A stretch of 64,000 bases of DNA from an uncultured Gammaproteobacteria bacterium. GTDB lineage: Bacteria > Patescibacteriota > Patescibacteriia > Patescibacteriales > UBA12465. The notes beneath the pieces are model-generated. The model had not been told where the DNA came from, searched no databases, and saw only the letters and a program-made list of their open reading frames with translations. Both the position numbers and the translations under genes were made by a program. The stretch spans positions 39,310-103,309 of the forward strand of contig CAZFBV010000001.1 in NCBI GenBank assembly GCA_964517325.1, written 5' to 3'. Positions within the stretch are counted from its first letter, which is position 1. Every line of letters starts with the position of its first letter. This document shows positions 2,971-53,004 of this stretch, one piece after another.

Positions 2971-3003
2971 TCAGCAGGCTCGACTGGAGCCAGCTGATTT
3001 TTA
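2969..3003 (+). terminator. intrinsic-terminator-like hairpin after mreB
   Basis: 12-bp stem with one A.A mismatch (aatcagcaggctc / gagccagctgatt), 5-nt loop, T-run 2998-3002. It ends 7 nt before the next ATG (3010). Confidence 0.65.
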
Positions 3004-3009
3004 TTTATT

Positions 3010-23854: not shown

Positions 23855-23895
23855 TCTCAAATAATATAGGCAGCTCGCCTGTATACATAAAAAAT

Positions 23896-28412: not shown

Positions 28413-28442
28413 ACTTTATCTTTTTTTCATCTTCGATCTGTT

Positions 28443-28475
28443 AAAATGCCGCTATTAAACTAGCGGCATTTTTTT
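28443..28475 (+). terminator. intrinsic terminator after prfB
   Basis: 9-bp stem atgccgcta / tagcggcat, 6-nt loop, T-run 28469-28475 that runs directly into the comEC ATG (28476). Confidence 0.75.
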
Positions 28476-33600: not shown

Positions 33601-33643
33601 ATCAATAGAGACATTTTCATTCAATAATTTGTAATCTTTTTAT

Positions 33644-35722
33644 ATGGCTCGAGACTACGCGTTGGAAAACATCAGAAACATCGGCATCATGGCGCACATC
33701 GACGCCGGCAAAACTACTTTTACCGAGCGTGTTTTGTTTTATACCGGCAAGAAGCATAAGATCGGCGAAGTCCATGAAGGCGCCGCGGAAATGGATTGGA
33801 TGGAACAGGAAAAGGAAAGGGGTATCACTATTACCTCTGCCGCGACCACTTGTTTTTGGAAACAGAATAAGATCAATATCATCGATACCCCAGGGCACGT
33901 CGATTTCACTGTCGAAGTCGAGCGCTCTTTGCGTGTTTTAGACGGCGCTATCGCTGTCTTCGATGGCCAGGCCGGCGTCGAGCCGCAGTCTGAAACTGTC
34001 TGGCGCCAAGCGGATAAATACAATGTTCCTCGCCTGTGTTTCGTCAATAAGATGGATAAAATGGGTGCGGATTTTTACATGAGTTTGAACTCCATCAAGA
34101 CCAGATTGAACCAGAAAGCCGTGGCTATCCAGCTGCCTATCGGCGCGGAAAGCAATCTTAGCGGCGTTATCGACTTATTAGCTCAGAAGGCGTATAAGTT
34201 TACCGGCATGAATGGCGTCAATATTGAAGAGATCCCGGTTCCGGAAGATATGAAAGATAAGGTTGCTAAGTTCCATAACGAATTGATCGAAAAAGCCGTA
34301 GAGTGCGATGAAGCGACTATGGAAAAATATCTGAGCGGCGAGGAAATATCTTCTGAAGAATTGAAAGCAGCCATCAGAAAAGGCGTGATCGCTAATGCTA
34401 TTTATCCGGTTTTATGCGGTACCGCTTTGCAGAATATCGGCGTCCAGTTAGCGCTTGATGCGGTCAATGATTATCTCCCGTCTCCTTTGGATGTCCCGAC
34501 TTTGGAAGTGACCGACATGAAAGATGCGGATAAGAAGATTATCATTACGGCTGATGATGGCAAGCCTTTCGTCGGCTTAGCTTTTAAGATCGCCACTGAT
34601 CCGTTCGTCGGCAAGCTTTGCTTCGTCCGCGTTTATCAGGGTGTCCTGACGGCCGGTTCCTATATTCTCAACTCGTCTAAAGATAATAAAGAAAGAGTCG
34701 GGCGCTTGGTCCGCATGCATGCCAATCATCGTGAAGAAATCAAGGAGATCTGCGCTGGAGATATCGCCGCCGTTATCGGTTTGAAGAGCACGACTACCGG
34801 CAATACTTTGTGCGATGAGAATTCTCCTGTCTTATTAGAATCTATTGTTTTCCCGGAACCGGTCATTAAGATTGCGGTCGAACCGAAGACTAAGGCCGAC
34901 CAGGAGAAAATGGGCGTCGCCTTACAGCGTTTGGCTGAAGAAGATCCGACTTTCCGCGTCGAGACCGATCCGGAAACTAACCAGGTTCTCATTTCCGGCA
35001 TGGGCGAACTTCATTTGGAAATCATTGTCGATCGCATGAAGCGTGAATTCGGCGTCGAAGCTAACGTCGGCAATCCTCAGGTTTCTTATCGCGAAACGAT
35101 AACCAAAACGGCTGAAGCGGAACATAAATACGTCAAGCAATCCGGCGGTAAAGGACAATATGGACATTGTGCTTTGCGCGTCGAACCGCTTGAAACCGGC
35201 AAAGGCTTCGAGTTTGCCGATGAAGTTAAAGGCGGAGTCATTCCTCGCGAATTTATCCCGGCGATTGAAAAGGGCGTTAAGGAAGCGATTCTCAGCGGCA
35301 TCGTGGCCGGATACCCGATGGTTGATGTCAAAGCGGCCGTTTATTACGGTTCTTACCATGAAGTCGACTCTTCGGAAATCGCTTTCAAATTAGCAGCTAT
35401 CTTCGCTTTTAAGGAAGCTTGCCAGAAAGCCGGCGCTATCCTGCTCGAACCGATTATGAAAGTTGAAGTCACTACCCCGGAAGAATATATGGGCAACATC
35501 ATCGGCGATCTTAGTTCCAAGAGAGGACAGATCGAAGAAATGTCTGATCGCGCGAATATCAAAGTCGTCAAGGCTAAAGTTCCGCTTGCTGAAATGTTCG
35601 GCTATTCTACCGGCTTGCGTTCCATGAGCCAAGGCCGCGCTAATTATGTGATGGAATTCTCTCATTACTCGGAAGTGCCGAAGAATATCTTAGAGGCTAT
35701 CAAAGAGAAGCAAGGGAAGTAA
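33644..35722 (+). CDS. fusA: elongation factor G
   Basis: 692 aa. [17 protein letters not shown] and NKMDK GTPase motifs. Confidence 0.95.
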
Positions 35723-35822
35723 AAAATTATATTTTTTCCACTCAGGATTTTTTCTGTGGCAAAATCAATTAACATTGATTTTGCTCTACGAAAAAATATT
35801 CGTTCCAAAAATATGATTTTTT
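35721..35822 (+). repeat. structured palindromic repeat, copy A (REP-like family)
   Basis: Starts inside the fusA stop codon. 16-bp outer stem (one G.U), 8-bp middle stem attttttc/gaaaaaat, conserved tgtg...tctac, and an 11-bp apical hairpin gcaaaatcaat-taac-attgattttgc. Homologous to 52014-52123 and 52144-52246. Confidence 0.8.
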
Positions 35823-35851
35823 ACAACAGTTCATATTAATAACATTTGTGT

Positions 35852-36235
35852 ATGTTCCCAGAACAGTTAAAAAAAATTCTGAACCTAGTTAAAAAGACCG
35901 GTGACCGGGTAGTAATCTTCGACGCCAGCGCTCCGGATGATTCTTATGTGATCATGGGTTTTGATAATTATGCCGCTGGCCTGAATTCTGTTCCGTCCTC
36001 AAAAATCGCCAAGATTCAAGAAACCCCGGCTAATACCCCGATTATGGCTGATTTATCAGTAAATTTTGAAGAAAAGGAAAATTTGACAGAAGAAGATTTA
36101 ACTGATAAGATTAATCGCGAAATCTCGATGTGGAAAAATCGAGAAAATTCTGTTTTCTTGGGGGAAGAGAATAAGCCTAAAAAAGCTTGGCAAATCCCTT
36201 CGAAAGTAAAAGATAAAGCGCAGGAAATAGAGTAA
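35852..36235 (+). CDS. hypothetical acidic protein inserted between fusA and tuf
   Basis: 127 aa from ATG 35852 (track TTG 35846). No recognisable motif. Confidence 0.5.
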   Translation: MFPEQLKKILNLVKKTGDRVVIFDASAPDDSYVIMGFDNYAAGLNSVPSSKIAKIQETPANTPIMADLSVNFEEKENLTEEDLTDKINREISMWKNRENSVFLGEENKPKKAWQIPSKVKDKAQEIE

Positions 36236-36292
36236 TAATAGGTAAGAGTTTAACAAGGTTATAAATAATTTAAATAACAATTAATTAATTAA

Positions 36293-36356
36293 GTTCGGCT
36301 GGTTTCCTGGGTTAATCCAGGAAAGAAACCCCGTGGTAAACGGGGGCCTAACACCA
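36293..36356 (+). promoter_or_regulatory. structured tuf leader with acceptor/T-arm-like minihelix ending ACCA
   Basis: gttcggc (36293-99) pairs 6 of 7 with gcctaac (36346-52). A ccccg-tggtaaa-cgggg hairpin abuts the 3' strand. Inner hairpin tttcctgg-gttaat-ccaggaaa. Ends a-cca, 7 nt before the tuf ATG. Confidence 0.35.
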
Positions 36357-36362
36357 AAAAAC

Positions 36363-37553
36363 ATGGCAACAGAAAAATTTGAACGCACCAAGCCCCATGT
36401 TAACGTCGGTACTATCGGCCACGTTGACCATGGGAAGACTACCTTAACCGCCGCGATGTTAGCCGTTTTCAATGCCAAAGGCATGAAAGCTTCTCACAAA
36501 GGCGTCGGTGAAATCGATGCCGCTCCTGAAGAAAAAGAGAGAGGTATCACTATCGCCACCGCTCACGTCGAGTATGAGTCTGAAAAGAGACATTATGCTC
36601 ACGTCGATTGTCCGGGCCACGCCGATTATGTCAAGAACATGATTACCGGTGCCGCTCAAATGGATGGCGCTATCTTGGTGGTCGCTGCGACTGATGGCCC
36701 TATGCCTCAGACCAGAGAACACATCTTATTGGCTCGCCAGGTCGGCGTCCCTTATATCATTGTCTTCTTGAATAAGTGCGATATGGTTGAAGATAAGGAA
36801 TTGATCGACCTCGTCGAAGAAGAAATCCGTGATTTATTGAAGAAATACGAATTCCCAGGCGATACCACCCCGATTATCAGAGGTTCTGCCTTGAAGGCTT
36901 TAGAGAACCCGACCGGCGCTGATGCCGAGCCGATCATGAAGCTGATGGAGACCTTGGATTCTTATATCCCTGAGCCTACCCGCGATGTCAATCTTCCTTA
37001 CTTGATGCCTATCGAGGATATCTTCTCAATCGAAGGCCGCGGTACCGTTGTTACCGGCCGTATCGAAAGAGGCGCCGTCAAAGTCGGCGATGAAGTTGAA
37101 ATCGTCGGTTTGATGGATACTAAAAAGACTACCGTTACCGGCATTGAAATGTTCAATAAGTCTTTGGATCAAGGTATGGCTGGCGATAACGCCGGTATCT
37201 TGCTTCGCGGTACTAAGAAGAATGAAGTTGAGCGCGGCCAGGTTTTATGCAAACCGGGATCTATCACTCCTCACACTGAATTCACTGCTGAAGTCTATGT
37301 CCTGTCTAAGGATGAAGGCGGACGCCATAAGCCGTTCTTCAACGGCTATAAGCCGCAATTCTACTTCAAGACTACTGATGTTACCGGCGATATTACTTTA
37401 GCCGCCGGCACTGAAATGGTTATGCCTGGAGATACTACTAACTTAACTATTAAGTTAATTGCTCCGATCGCTCTTGAAGACAAACAGAAATTTACCATTC
37501 GCGAAGGCGGTCGTACCGTTGGCGCGGGTGTCGTTACTAAGATTTTAAAGTAA
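36363..37553 (+). CDS. tuf: elongation factor Tu
   Basis: [12 protein letters not shown] start (track GTG 36333 extends into the leader). [17 protein letters not shown] and NKCD motifs. Confidence 0.95.
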
Positions 37554-37560
37554 CCACTTT

Positions 37561-37587
37561 AGCCTGCTCTTGATGAAAGGGCAGGCT
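37561..37587 (+). terminator. hairpin after tuf (weak terminator or processing/stability element)
   Basis: agcctgc ... gcaggct 7-bp GC-rich stem with a 13-nt loop; no clear U-tract. Confidence 0.35.
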
Positions 37588-37613
37588 TGTAGTGTATATT
37601 TTAAATAATAATT

Positions 37614-48687: not shown

Positions 48688-48712
48688 TCCTATATCCAGC
48701 CAATAAGAATAT

Positions 48713-48742
48713 AAAAAATCGGCTTTAAAGCTGATTTTTTTT
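48713..48742 (+). terminator. intrinsic terminator after secY
   Basis: atcggc-tttaaa-gctgat hairpin (one G.U) flanked by an A-run and T8. Confidence 0.65.
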
Positions 48743-48743
48743 A

Positions 48744-48752
48744 TGGTATAAT
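48744..48752 (+). promoter_or_regulatory. extended -10 promoter (TGgTATAAT) placed for a near-leaderless transcript
   Basis: TGgTATAAT at 48744-48752. The ATG of the next ORF at 48761 lies 8 nt after the -10 element. Confidence 0.5.
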
Positions 48753-48760
48753 GAATTGAT

Positions 48761-52013: not shown

Positions 52014-52123
52014 TAAGCTAAAGAATATGTTTTCTCCGCTTAGGGTGATTTCTGTGGCAATCCGCCAGTTGGCGGATTGCTCTACGAAATCACATGCGCT
52101 TCAAAAACATATTCTTTAGCTTA
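52014..52123 (+). repeat. structured palindromic repeat, copy B1 (REP-like family)
   Basis: Starts 1 nt after the ruvX stop. Perfect 20-bp outer stem taagctaaagaatatgtttt/aaaacatattctttagctta, 8-bp middle stem gtgatttc/gaaatcac, conserved tgtg...tctac, and apical hairpin gcaatccgcc-agtt-ggcggattgc. Confidence 0.85.
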
Positions 52124-52143
52124 TTGTGTAAGATATCAAGAGT

Positions 52144-52246
52144 TTAGGAAATATTTTTTGAAGTGAATATTTTTTCGTAAAGCAAAAATCAATGTTAATT
52201 GATTTTTGCCACAGAAAAAATCCTGAACGTAAAAAATATTTCCTAA
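52144..52246 (-). repeat. structured palindromic repeat, copy B2 (REP-like family, inverted relative to B1)
   Basis: The reverse complement is nearly identical to copy A in the central ~60 nt (ttcaggattttttctgtggcaaaaatcaattaacattgatttttgctttacgaaaaaatattc). Perfect 16-bp outer stem ttaggaaatatttttt/aaaaaatatttcctaa. Ends 8 nt before the recO ATG. Confidence 0.85.
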
Positions 52247-52254
52247 GATCTTAT

Positions 52255-53004
52255 ATGAGTACAGAAGAAACAAAAAATACACCCGCGCTGATATTGAATC
52301 GCCAGGATTATAAGGAGAATGACAGCTTGGTGACGGTCTATACGCCTCGCTTCGGGAAATTGGCGCTAGTCGCTCGCGGAACTAAAAAAGCCGGCTCTAA
52401 ATTAGCTGGCCATATCGAGCCGCTGACTTCAGCCGACTTTATGATTATCGCCGGCAAGGGTTTTGACTATATCGGCAGCGCTATCACGCGCGAAGCGTAC
52501 CCAGGCATCAGAAAGGATCTGAATAAGATCTATTATGCCGGCAGGGCGCTTAATCTATTCAATCGGCTGACTAAAGAGAATCAGAGCGACGAGCGCTTAT
52601 TTTTTTTATTGGAGAGATGGTTAGGGATATTGAATGATTTTTCTGATTTCAAACGAGAGAACGGAGAACTGGTTTTAGCTTTTTTTACCATTAAATTATT
52701 GGCGGAATTAGGCTATAAGCCGGAAATGTATCATTGCCTGGGGTGCTCTAAGGCTATTAATCCCGGCAAGAATTATTTTAATCTGGCCAATGGCGGCGTA
52801 GTCTGCGTGGAATGTTTCGAGAAAGATCGTGCGGCCGGAGGTATTCCTAAGTCTGAATTATTGACAATATCCGATAATTGTATCAAATTGATGCGTTTTA
52901 TGGTCGATAATCGGTTCAAATCAGCAGAAAAATTGAAAACAGACAATAAGACTTTGAAAGAGACAAACAACCTTCTTGATAAATTTATAATCTTCCATTT
53001 CTAA
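52255..53004 (+). CDS. recO: DNA repair protein RecO
   Basis: ATG 52255; the track start 52192 reads through repeat B2. OB-fold N-terminus and zinc finger CLGCSKAINPGKNYFNLANGGVVCVEC. Confidence 0.85.
   Translation: MSTEETKNTPALILNRQDYKENDSLVTVYTPRFGKLALVARGTKKAGSKLAGHIEPLTSADFMIIAGKGFDYIGSAITREAYPGIRKDLNKIYYAGRALNLFNRLTKENQSDERLFFLLERWLGILNDFSDFKRENGELVLAFFTIKLLAELGYKPEMYHCLGCSKAINPGKNYFNLANGGVVCVECFEKDRAAGGIPKSELLTISDNCIKLMRFMVDNRFKSAEKLKTDNKTLKETNNLLDKFIIFHF

What the first reader, a model, noticed from the sequence alone, without database searches (positions are those of the whole stretch)
35721..35822. Third copy of the structured repeat starts inside the fusA stop codon and breaks fusA-tuf adjacency
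Copy A begins at the AA of the fusA TAA (35720-35722) and folds like the ruvX-recO copies. It has a 16-bp outer stem with one U.G pair, the attttttc/gaaaaaat middle stem, and an 11-bp apical hairpin with a taac loop.

All three copies abut a stop or start codon within 0-8 nt. That placement suggests a role tied to transcript ends, such as a 3' stabiliser, a terminator or an insertion-site preference, rather than random intergenic junk.

fusA and tuf are normally adjacent in the str operon. Here they are separated by about 640 nt, made up of this repeat, an orphan ORF and a structured tuf leader.
Basis: seen in the sequence. Interest (0 to 1): 0.6.

Follow-up and report, generated by a model that had tools for sequence, protein, structure and literature searches.

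The report
Mobile palindromic hairpin inserted after fusA
The hairpin that starts in the fusA stop codon is a real copy of a small palindromic DNA repeat of Falkowbacteria-like ultra-small bacteria that appears, disappears, flips and swaps parts between close relatives. The gap between fusA and tuf is mostly due to a conserved small gene, not to this repeat.

Summary
Window 35719-35824 is a 106-nt nested hairpin (-33.7 kcal/mol, z = -7.1) that overlaps the fusA TAA. It has two more copies at 52014-52120 (+) and 52138-52252 (-).

The family has 35 non-redundant copies in Falkowbacteria/Patescibacteria contigs. Its helices covary strongly and its internal loops are conserved. There is no Rfam match.

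At the fusA 3' site the element is dispensable and dynamic:
- Four genomes share about 90% fusA identity. The window has it sense. L086 has it sense with the apical hairpin exchanged for the copy-B type. L088 has it inverted and next to the following ATG. L087 lacks it (8-nt spacer).
- Five more distant relatives also lack it.

Family-wide, orientation relative to genes is unbiased (13:20) and there is no U-tract. Closeness to stop and start codons follows from very short spacers.

The "orphan" ORF has at least 300 homologs, always lies between fusA and tuf in the 12 loci, and evolves as a protein. It, a promoter-like site inside it and a near-invariant tuf leader account for the 640-nt gap.

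Best reading: a non-autonomous, hairpin-defined mobile or recombining DNA repeat (REPIN/ERIC-like) with no known mobilising enzyme. A terminator or stabiliser role is not supported as its defining function.

The parts
33644..35722 (+). fusA (EF-G, 692 aa). Its stop codon TAA at 35720-35722 lies inside the outer stem of the repeat.
   Evidence: ORF list. Pfam labels on orthologous genes. tblastn 91% identity to L051.
35719..35824 (+). Copy A of the nested palindromic hairpin repeat.
- Outer stem 35719-35736 / 35807-35824.
- Loop 1: 35737-35746 / 35798-35806, holding a covarying 2-bp mini-helix (35740-35803 and 35741-35802).
- Middle stem 35747-35754 / 35790-35797.
- Loop 2: TGTG 35755-35758 / TCTAC 35785-35789.
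- Apical hairpin 35759-35784.
   Evidence: Fold. Covariance-model hit of 94.3 bits, E = 5e-18. Covariation. Presence/absence among relatives.
35825..35851 (+). Residual native fusA-ORF spacer (CAACAGTTCATATTAATAACATTTGTGT). It is homologous to the spacer that lies on the other side of the inverted copy in L088, and to the repeat-free spacer of L089.
   Evidence: Junction comparison.
35852..36235 (+).
   Evidence: At least 300 homologs in Patescibacteria. Same position in the 11 related loci. Substitutions by codon position 118:81:378. No Pfam family. Weak model (pLDDT 65) and no fold match.
36083..36111 (+). Promoter-like site TTGACA-17-TAAGAT with TG, inside the 127-aa gene, in a stretch where even synonymous sites are frozen. 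A candidate tuf promoter (inferred).
   Evidence: Scan (10 of 12 matches). One variable site per 30 nt at ORF nucleotides 240-300, against 6-23 elsewhere. Contig depth spikes at 36076-36107.
36292..36348 (+). Conserved two-hairpin tuf leader: AGTTCGGCTGGTTTCC-[variable tip]-GGAAAGAAACCCCG-[loop]-CGGGGGCC.
   Evidence: Nearly invariant in 10 loci. Only the tip of hairpin 1 varies in length. No Rfam match.
36363..37553 (+). tuf (EF-Tu, 396 aa).
   Evidence: Translation. Pfam labels on orthologs.
52014..52120 (+). Copy B of the repeat, directly after the ruvX stop. Its apical hairpin AATCCGCCAGTTGGCGGATT is the type found in the fusA copy of relative L086.
   Evidence: (93.9 bits).
52138..52252 (-). 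Copy C of the repeat, inverted, ending 2-6 nt before the recO ATG at 52255.
   Evidence: 91.5 bits.

Best explanation
Copy A is one insertion of a low-copy, non-autonomous palindromic DNA element family of Falkowbacteria-like Patescibacteria.

Shown:
- The element is a conserved asymmetric core. It has two internal loops, an xxxxTTTC/GAAAxxxx middle helix and a short ATRTTTTT/AAAAAYAT inner outer stem.
- It carries a hypervariable apical hairpin and sits at the centre of a longer palindrome whose sequence is specific to each locus.
- It is gained or lost at the fusA 3' junction within a clade of about 90% fusA identity.
- It is found inverted at orthologous junctions.
- Its apical hairpin is exchanged between copies.
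- It lies in either orientation between co-directional housekeeping genes.

Inferred:
- It spreads or persists as a folded single-stranded (hairpin or cruciform) DNA. The mismatched loops are read by a structure-specific enzyme, possibly of the HUH/Y1 type as for REP-RAYT, but no such enzyme was identified.
- Recombination between its own inverted arms flips the core.
- Short-patch conversion between copies swaps the apical module.
- Arm-to-arm templated repair or selection keeps the arms complementary.

At this locus it is transcribed with fusA and adds a strong hairpin just after the stop codon. This is tolerated because tuf probably has its own promoter and leader. Any effect on fusA mRNA 3' stability or read-through is a by-product, not the element's purpose.
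For: Family:
- The pattern scans and covariance model R1 give 35 non-redundant copies at 63-98 bits. All are in Patescibacteria-type contigs and none in viral contigs.
- 96.3% of helix cells are paired against 80.2% in shuffles. Ten of 20 pairs have double changes. No shuffle out of 500 reaches this, and slid controls stay at or below 57%.
- The loop-1 mini-helix covaries: CGCT/CGCT in 23 copies, CACT/CGTT in 5, CGTT/CACT in 5, and one-sided change in 2.

Mobility at this site:
- The window and L086 are filled in sense. L086 has the copy-B-type apical hairpin. L088 is inverted and sits on the other side of the native spacer. L087, L089, L090, L091, L093 and L095 are empty. L051 instead has a copy before fusA.
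- The fusA tree puts the window, L086, L087 and L088 in one clade with 100/100 support.

Other junctions:
- The rmlC-HIT junction has a 1-nt spacer in the window but is filled in five genomes, in both orientations, with the flip boundaries inside the arms.
- The junction upstream of ruvX is empty in the window and filled in L009.

No strand logic:
- Orientation is 13 sense to 20 antisense.
- Apart from the two invariant G.T pairs of loop 2, G.T and A.C mismatches are about equally common.

Locus-specific arms:
- The outer stems average 17.9 bp against 8.8 bp when the arms are swapped between copies. None of 200 permutations reaches this.
- Near-identical cores in L072 and L082 carry unrelated arms.
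Against: - No transposase or other mobilising gene was found. A crude HUH...Y motif screen of 304 kb of element-bearing loci found nothing.
- No target-site duplication could be defined in the AT-rich junctions.
- Copy number is low: 3 in 64 kb, and 1-3 exact core matches per representative genome. REPs usually number in the hundreds.
- Some junctions (ruvX-recO, rmlC-HIT) are occupied across genomes whose flanking proteins are only 65-70% identical. There the arms have diverged but still pair. This is the signature expected of a selected structure, so a host function is not excluded.
- Most copies were found through a pattern containing the two core motifs, so the invariance of those motifs is partly by construction.
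Confidence: 0.62

Rival explanations
1. A host-maintained structured module. The hairpin, as RNA or as extruded or single-stranded DNA, is a functional element whose conserved mismatched loops bind a specific Patescibacteria protein. Candidates would be a processing, stability or replication/recombination signal. Copies are kept by selection, not spread selfishly.
For: - Strong covariation in every helix, including a 2-bp mini-helix inside loop 1, while the same mismatches persist in all copies.
- Arms at orthologous junctions have diverged but remain complementary.
- Long-term occupancy of the ruvX-recO and rmlC-HIT junctions. Seven of the 35 copies flank ruvX, a Holliday-junction-resolvase-like nuclease gene.
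- The strand carrying GTAGAGC...GCCACAG folds about 4 kcal/mol better in 30 of 35 copies.
Against: - Orientation relative to transcription is unbiased, and it flips between close relatives.
- The element is absent from the fusA site in 7 of 11 related loci, with nothing in its place in six of them.
- Excess wobble pairs on one strand come only from two invariant positions.
- The loci showing long-term occupancy were ascertained through the element itself.
- No partner protein is known.
Confidence: 0.2
2. One reading: the element is primarily an intrinsic terminator or 3' mRNA stabiliser placed at gene ends, and copy A uncouples fusA from downstream genes.
For: - Copy A is a -33.7 kcal/mol hairpin starting in the stop codon. 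It has an A6 run on its 5' side and a T6 run on its 3' side (35817-35822), like a bidirectional terminator.
- Nearly all copies (31 of 35) lie between co-directional genes within 0-30 nt of coding ends.
- Known REP and ERIC elements can stabilise upstream mRNA (established knowledge; abstract of PMC3733652).
Against: - The T run of copy A is paired within the stem, and the stem next to it is all A-T.
- The scan calls no terminator there.
- Family-wide there is no T enrichment after the hairpin, and only 2 of 16 scorable copies have 5 or more T in 8 nt.
- Copies B and C lack T runs.
- Half the copies are upstream-abutting or antisense.
- Close relatives function without it.
Confidence: 0.12
3. 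Chance similarity of AT-rich intergenic palindromes, with no real family.
For: The genome is AT-rich and about a quarter of the larger spacers in the window fold better than shuffles.
Against: - Three copies at 76-92% identity over about 105 nt in the window.
- 35 copies at E values down to 1e-18.
- Fold z-scores of -6.6 and -7.8 are the two most extreme of 35 spacers.
Confidence: 0.01

Closest known systems
REP / REPIN elements mobilised by RAYT (TnpA-REP, Y1 HUH transposases); GTAG-tagged REP super-family (PMC3733652, PMC3116915, PMC2817692)
   Same: - Extragenic and gene-less.
- About 100 nt, hairpin-forming, mostly between co-directional genes and just after coding regions, in both orientations.
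- Helices keep pairing while their sequence drifts.
- On the reverse strand a GTAG (window 35789-35786) lies directly 5' of the apical palindrome in 24 of 35 copies.
- Persists at sites over long divergence.
   Different: - Low copy number.
- The two arms are not two copies of one REP. They differ at fixed positions (TGTG against GTAGA; CGCTYAG against GAGCGNAT).
- The tag is GTAA in 10 copies and GTCC in 1.
- Arms are locus-specific palindromes and the apical module is exchangeable.
- No RAYT gene was found or could be searched for.
- The phylum (Patescibacteria) is not among those surveyed in PMC3733652, from my reading of its abstract.
ERIC / IRU (enterobacterial repetitive intergenic consensus, about 127-bp imperfect palindromes)
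   Same: - Similar size and a long imperfect palindrome with conserved mismatches.
- Low to moderate copy number.
- Lies inside transcribed intergenic regions of operons in either orientation.
- Present or absent at orthologous sites in related genomes.
- No known transposase. (From established knowledge.)
   Different: - No sequence similarity expected or seen.
- ERIC has a fixed consensus over its whole length. It does not have a conserved core on variable arms.
- Different phylum.
Correia/NEMIS (Neisseria), RUP and BOX (Streptococcus) and other bacterial MITEs
   Same: Small non-coding insertions with terminal inverted repeats that land in intergenic DNA. They are co-transcribed and form hairpins that can be processed or alter expression of neighbours.
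   Different: - MITEs have sequence-fixed TIRs matching a parent IS and create direct target duplications. Here the shared TIR is only 8-9 bp of A/T.
- No direct duplication was detectable and no parent IS is known.
- The flanks continue the palindrome instead.
Integron attC sites
   Same: Function through a folded single strand, with a paired backbone, conserved unpaired or extrahelical positions and a variable terminal structure. They sit directly after a cassette ORF.
   Different: - No RYYYAAC/GTTRRRY core sites.
- Not in arrays.
- Both orientations.
- No integrase nearby.

Membership tests
REP/REPIN-RAYT | Short imperfect palindrome with an unpaired GTAG (or CGTC) tag at one end | tested here: inconclusive
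   On the reverse strand, GTAG precedes the apical hairpin in 24 of 35 copies, GTAA in 10 and GTCC in 1 (alignment). Most copies were retrieved with a pattern containing this motif.
REP/REPIN-RAYT | REPIN is two copies of the same REP in inverted orientation | tested here: not met
   The arms differ at fixed positions in all copies: TGTG against TCTAC in loop 2, and CGCTYAGR against AYNCGCTC in loop 1.
REP/REPIN-RAYT | High copy number (tens to hundreds per genome) | tested here: inconclusive
   Three copies in the 64-kb window. One to three exact core matches per representative genome in the genome-contig scan. Whole-genome counting was impossible.
REP/REPIN-RAYT | A single-copy RAYT (Y1 HUH transposase) gene in the genome, flanked by the repeats | not testable with these tools
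A crude HUH...Y regex over 304 kb of loci found none, which is weak evidence.
MITE | Terminal inverted repeats conserved in sequence | tested here: met
   ATRTTTTT / AAAAAYAT is shared by the copies. An arm-swap control still pairs 8.8 bp.
MITE | Direct target-site duplication and a parent IS with the same ends | tested here: inconclusive
   Filled and empty junctions at fusA, rmlC-HIT and upstream of ruvX show no consistent direct repeat. The flanks are inverted repeats instead. No IS was seen in the loci.
Intrinsic (rho-independent) terminator | G+C-rich stem of 5-14 bp followed by an unpaired U-tract | tested here: not met
   Not called at 35719-35824 by the scan. Family mean is 3.0 T in the 8 nt after the hairpin, equal to background.
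Any Rfam RNA family | Score at or above the gathering threshold of a covariance model | tested here: not met
   No hits at gathering over the whole window. The best sub-threshold hits are eukaryotic snoRNA/miRNA models at E of 0.3 or more.
Integron attC | R''/R' core sites (RYYYAAC ... GTTRRRY) and uniform orientation in an array next to intI | tested here: not met
   The ends are A/T runs without GTTRRRY. Copies are dispersed and lie in both orientations.

The most novel reading that the evidence does not exclude
The element may not be a passive repeat. It could be the displayed target of an undescribed structure-specific system in Patescibacteria. An invariant asymmetric core would be presented on arms that may take any sequence as long as they pair. 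The core comprises pyrimidine-rich loop 1 with a covarying 2-bp mini-helix, the TTTC/GAAA helix, and the TGTG/TCTAC loop with two invariant G.T pairs. A dedicated protein acting on hairpin or cruciform DNA (or on the RNA) would read it, and the arms would be regenerated from each other. The repeated placement beside ruvX, a resolvase-like nuclease gene, would then parallel REPs flanking their RAYT gene.
Probability: 0.15. Interest if true: 0.75.

Novelty: new variant of a known kind. Interest (0 to 1): 0.42.

Why it matters
Candidate-phyla-radiation bacteria have tiny, tightly packed genomes and are thought to carry few repeats. A hairpin-defined element that inserts into 1-30-nt gene junctions of core operons (the str operon, ruvX-recO) shows active small-scale genome dynamics in this group. 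It is gained, lost, flipped and rebuilt from modules within about 10% sequence divergence, and it points to an unidentified hairpin-recognising activity.

Practically, it warns annotators against reading such hairpins as terminators or sRNA genes. It also corrects the picture of this str operon. The fusA-tuf gap is an ancestral feature made of a conserved unknown gene, an embedded promoter-like site and a conserved tuf leader.

Tried and rejected
Copy number per genome and a search for RAYT/HUH genes could not be done.
- Rfam at gathering and at E up to 10: nothing meaningful.
- Viral contigs: one pattern hit, not confirmed by the model.
- Sequencing runs: no run holds this genome (share 0.22 or less) and all are assembled contigs. 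Read-level inversion/excision and RNA 3' ends could not be examined. The contigs did confirm the inverted allele (the L088 contig) and repeat-free alleles.
- HUH...Y motif screen of loci: negative, low power.
- Strand asymmetry: the reverse strand folds about 4 kcal/mol better. Wobble counts do not support a strand-specific constraint, so I did not use it.
- Target-site duplication: none was definable. The idea that the right arm is an inverted copy of the fusA stop region is suggestive. GTAAAA pairs with TTTTAC in the window, L086 and L094, and this right arm is absent from empty sites. It did not generalise to the tRNA-adjacent or rmlC-HIT copies.
- Insertion into pre-existing hairpins: simple hairpins are common in the window's spacers. 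The empty rmlC-HIT (1 nt) and upstream-ruvX (43 nt, z = -0.06) sites hold none.
- The 127-aa protein: no Pfam family. The AlphaFold model is weak (pLDDT 65, pTM 0.29). Foldseek against PDB gives nothing below E = 0.2. An L7Ae/L30e-like (K-turn-binding) identity, hinted at by one source label, is not supported.
- The 131-aa gene next to several copies is a HIT-family protein, not ruvX.
- Literature search for palindromic repeats in Patescibacteria: no description found.
Full report
**1. The observation**

Window 35719-35824 folds into a nested hairpin as described.
- The outer stem is 18 bp: 35719-35736 with 35807-35824, with one T.G pair at 35728.35815.
- A 10 x 9-nt internal loop follows.
- The middle stem is ATTTTTTC/GAAAAAAT (35747-54 / 35790-97).
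- A TGTG/TCTAC internal loop follows.
- The apical stem is 11 bp with a TAAC loop (35759-35784).
- The MFE is -33.7 kcal/mol against -13.5 +/- 2.9 for shuffles (z = -7.07).

The stem includes G35719 and the fusA stop TAA (35720-22). Repeat finding and alignment confirm two more copies at 52014-52120 (+) and 52138-52252 (-), filling the ruvX-recO spacer. The fusA stop to tuf ATG distance is 640 nt.

**2. The family**

No Rfam family matches. A core pattern, TTTCTGTGGC-N14-34-GCTYTACGAAA, was scanned over representative genomes and metagenomes. It retrieved full-length look-alikes only from Falkowbacteria/Patescibacteria-type contigs. A few of these are labelled Gammaproteobacteria, but they carry Falkowbacteria-like ruvX at 70% identity. 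A covariance model (R1) confirms 35 non-redundant copies at 63-98 bits and none in viral contigs.

Covariation is strong.
- 96.3% of cells are paired against 80.2% in shuffles.
- Ten of 20 pairs carry compensatory double changes (106 cells against 32.5 expected).
- No shuffle out of 500 reaches this, and slid controls pair at 57% or less.

Inside loop 1, two positions covary as a mini-helix flanked by constant C.T mismatches. The states are CGCT/CGCT in 23 copies, CACT/CGTT in 5, CGTT/CACT in 5 and one-sided change in 2, after correcting three regex mis-picks.

The apical hairpin is hypervariable in sequence and length, and sometimes holds a further nested hairpin.

Every copy sits in a longer palindrome. 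The outer stems average 17.9 bp, against 8.8 bp when right arms are exchanged among copies (0 of 200 permutations). About 9 bp is therefore a shared A/T-rich inverted repeat and the rest is locus-specific. L072 and L082 have near-identical cores but unrelated arms, one of them a perfect 16-bp G+C-rich arm.

A caveat applies. The invariance of TTTCTGTGG and ACGAAA is partly by construction. The copies found without the pattern (L086, L094, L009:4008-4135) keep them but vary in between (ACTCTAC, GCTGGAC, TCTTTAC).

**3. The fusA-tuf interval in relatives**

The 127-aa ORF (35852-36235) has at least 300 homologs in Patescibacteria. I fetched eleven related loci. Ten were found through that protein and one (L051) through the pattern. 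All have the order rpsL-rpsG-fusA-[this gene]-tuf-rpsJ. Differences among five orthologs fall 118:81:378 by codon position, so it is a real protein gene. It has no Pfam family, only a weak structure model and no fold match.

The fusA-to-ORF spacer differs between loci.

| Locus | Spacer | State |
|---|---|---|
| window | 129 nt | element in sense, at the TAA |
| L086 | 127 nt | same place and arms, apical hairpin replaced by AATCCGCCAGCTGGCGGATT (the window's copy-B type) |
| L088 | 131 nt | element inverted, 8 nt before the ATG, with the native spacer on its other side |
| L094 (ORF 63% identical) | 123 nt | element in sense, directly after the stop, with different arms and middle helix |
| L087 | 8 nt | empty |
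| L091 | 6 nt | empty |
| L093 | 9 nt | empty |
| L095 | 18 nt | empty |
| L089, L090 | 21 nt | empty |
| L051 | 222-aa extra ORF | carries the element before fusA instead |

For L088, laying contigs shows only 5 differences in 97 nt from copy A. Four of these are the loop-1 mini-helix switched to the copy-C state.

A fusA tree places the window, L086, L087 and L088 in one clade with 100/100 support at about 90% identity. The empty L091, L089 and L093 are outgroups. At least two gain, loss or rearrangement events therefore occurred within that clade. The repeat is dispensable here, and it is not what separates fusA from tuf.

**4. Other junctions**

- The rmlC-like/HIT junction is a 1-nt spacer in the window (positions 98-100). 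It holds the element in L003, L007 and L039 (sense) and in L020 and L028 (antisense). The near-identical cores of L007 and L020/L028 are flipped between arms that stay in place (TTATAC...GTATAA). This is as expected from recombination between the element's own inverted arms.
- The junction upstream of ruvX is a 43-nt unstructured spacer in the window and is filled in L009.
- Window copy B and L048 share the arm TAAGCTAAA(G/A)A(A)TAT after ruvX but have cores of different subfamilies. This is a core replacement.
- Seven of the 35 copies flank ruvX in five genomes.

**5. Tests of a transcript-end function**

- Relative to flanking co-directional genes, 13 copies are sense and 20 antisense (p = 0.30).
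- There is no T enrichment after the hairpins: a mean of 3.0 T in 8 nt, equal to base composition.
- The terminator scan does not call copy A.
- Median spacer length in the window is 29 nt and empty target junctions are 1-43 nt. Any tolerated 105-nt insertion must therefore abut coding ends.
- Apart from the two invariant G.T pairs of loop 2, G.T wobbles (39) and A.C mismatches (23 or more) are of similar frequency on the reference strand. This argues against an RNA read from one strand.
- The opposite strand folds about 4 kcal/mol better. This appears to stem from loop energies, not from pairing.

**6. Interpretation**

The data fit a non-autonomous, hairpin-defined mobile or recombining DNA element best. 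It resembles REPINs and ERIC in size, location, orientation-independence and persistence.
- Pairing plus conserved mismatches implies that a folded single strand or cruciform is what matters.
- Inversion, apical-module exchange and core replacement follow from its internal and inter-copy homology.
- Steps not shown: the mobilising activity, the insertion chemistry, and how the locus-specific palindromic arms arise. For the arms, pre-existing hairpins were not seen at two empty sites. Arm-to-arm templated extension is suggested by the right arm TTTTAC complementary to the fusA GTAAAA in the window, L086 and L094, but it is not general.

A host-selected structured module remains a serious rival. 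The arms stay complementary after extensive divergence at junctions occupied across distant genomes, although those loci were ascertained through the element.

**7. Consequences at this locus (inferred)**

The element is co-transcribed with fusA and forms a strong hairpin at the stop codon. A promoter-like TTGACA-17-TAAGAT (36083-36111) lies inside the 127-aa gene. There, synonymous sites are frozen and metagenome contig depth spikes. A near-invariant two-hairpin leader (36292-36348) precedes tuf in all loci. tuf is therefore probably expressed independently, which would make an insertion after fusA tolerable.

**8. Limits**

No raw reads or transcriptomes of this organism were available. Earlier notes of this scan on sibling copies reached similar conclusions. 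I treated them as leads and re-derived the evidence here.

Noticed in passing
L086:1630-1745, L091:752-865, L094:610-720, L051:1000-1110 (absent from window 33601-33643): A second, unrelated family of nested-hairpin insertions of about 110 nt sits directly after the rpsG stop in four relatives. Its consensus is ATTTTTGG...GTCA...GCTCG.TC.CCGTAT-loop-ATACGGCTC...CTCAAAAAT. The window, L087, L088, L089 and L095 lack it (41-44-nt spacers). L051 also carries 2-3 direct repeats of its right-arm tail.
   Followed up: partly
window 36083-36111 (inside ORF 35852-36235): A TTGACA-17-TAAGAT promoter-like site with TG coincides with the invariant LTEEDLTDKINREI motif. Only 1 variable site per 30 nt occurs there among five orthologs, against 6-23 elsewhere. 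Metagenome contig depth rises 10-40-fold there. The overlapping nucleotide-level constraint suggests the tuf promoter.
   Followed up: partly
window 36292-36348: The tuf leader AGTTCGGCTGGTTTCC-[tip]-GGAAAGAAACCCCG-[loop]-CGGGGGCC is nearly invariant in 10 loci. Only the tip of hairpin 1 varies in length. GGTTTC/GAAACC offers an alternative pairing. No Rfam match.
   Followed up: partly
L051:3490-4158: A 222-aa ORF of unknown function (no Pfam family) lies between fusA and the 127-aa gene in one relative only. It starts 2 nt after the fusA stop and overlaps the next gene's start.
   Followed up: no
L088:3870-3896 and window 52124-52137: The 11-mer TTGTGTAAGAT precedes the inverted copy both in L088 (fusA site) and in the window (between copies B and C). 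A related TTTGTGTATG precedes the ORF start in the window. It may be carried along with the element or be a start-proximal signal.
   Followed up: partly
L018:6935-6962 and L071:1143-1170: Two copies abut the 5' end of the same tRNA gene (GCCGTTGTAGCTCAGCTGGTAGAGCATC on the opposite strand) in two genomes. Their arms and middle helices differ.
   Followed up: no
L039:870-1043 (-): A degenerate family member whose apical region is expanded to about 95 nt. It holds another hairpin (CAAACAAGCG...GAAATGAAAAT-TC-ATTTTCATTTC...GCGCAGTTTG), so the tip accepts nested insertions.
   Followed up: no
window 2971-3009, 23855-23895, 28413-28475, 37554-37613, 48688-48760: Several other short spacers between co-directional genes fold far better than shuffles (z from -3.5 to -5.4). 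They lack the repeat core and look like ordinary terminator-like hairpins.
   Followed up: no
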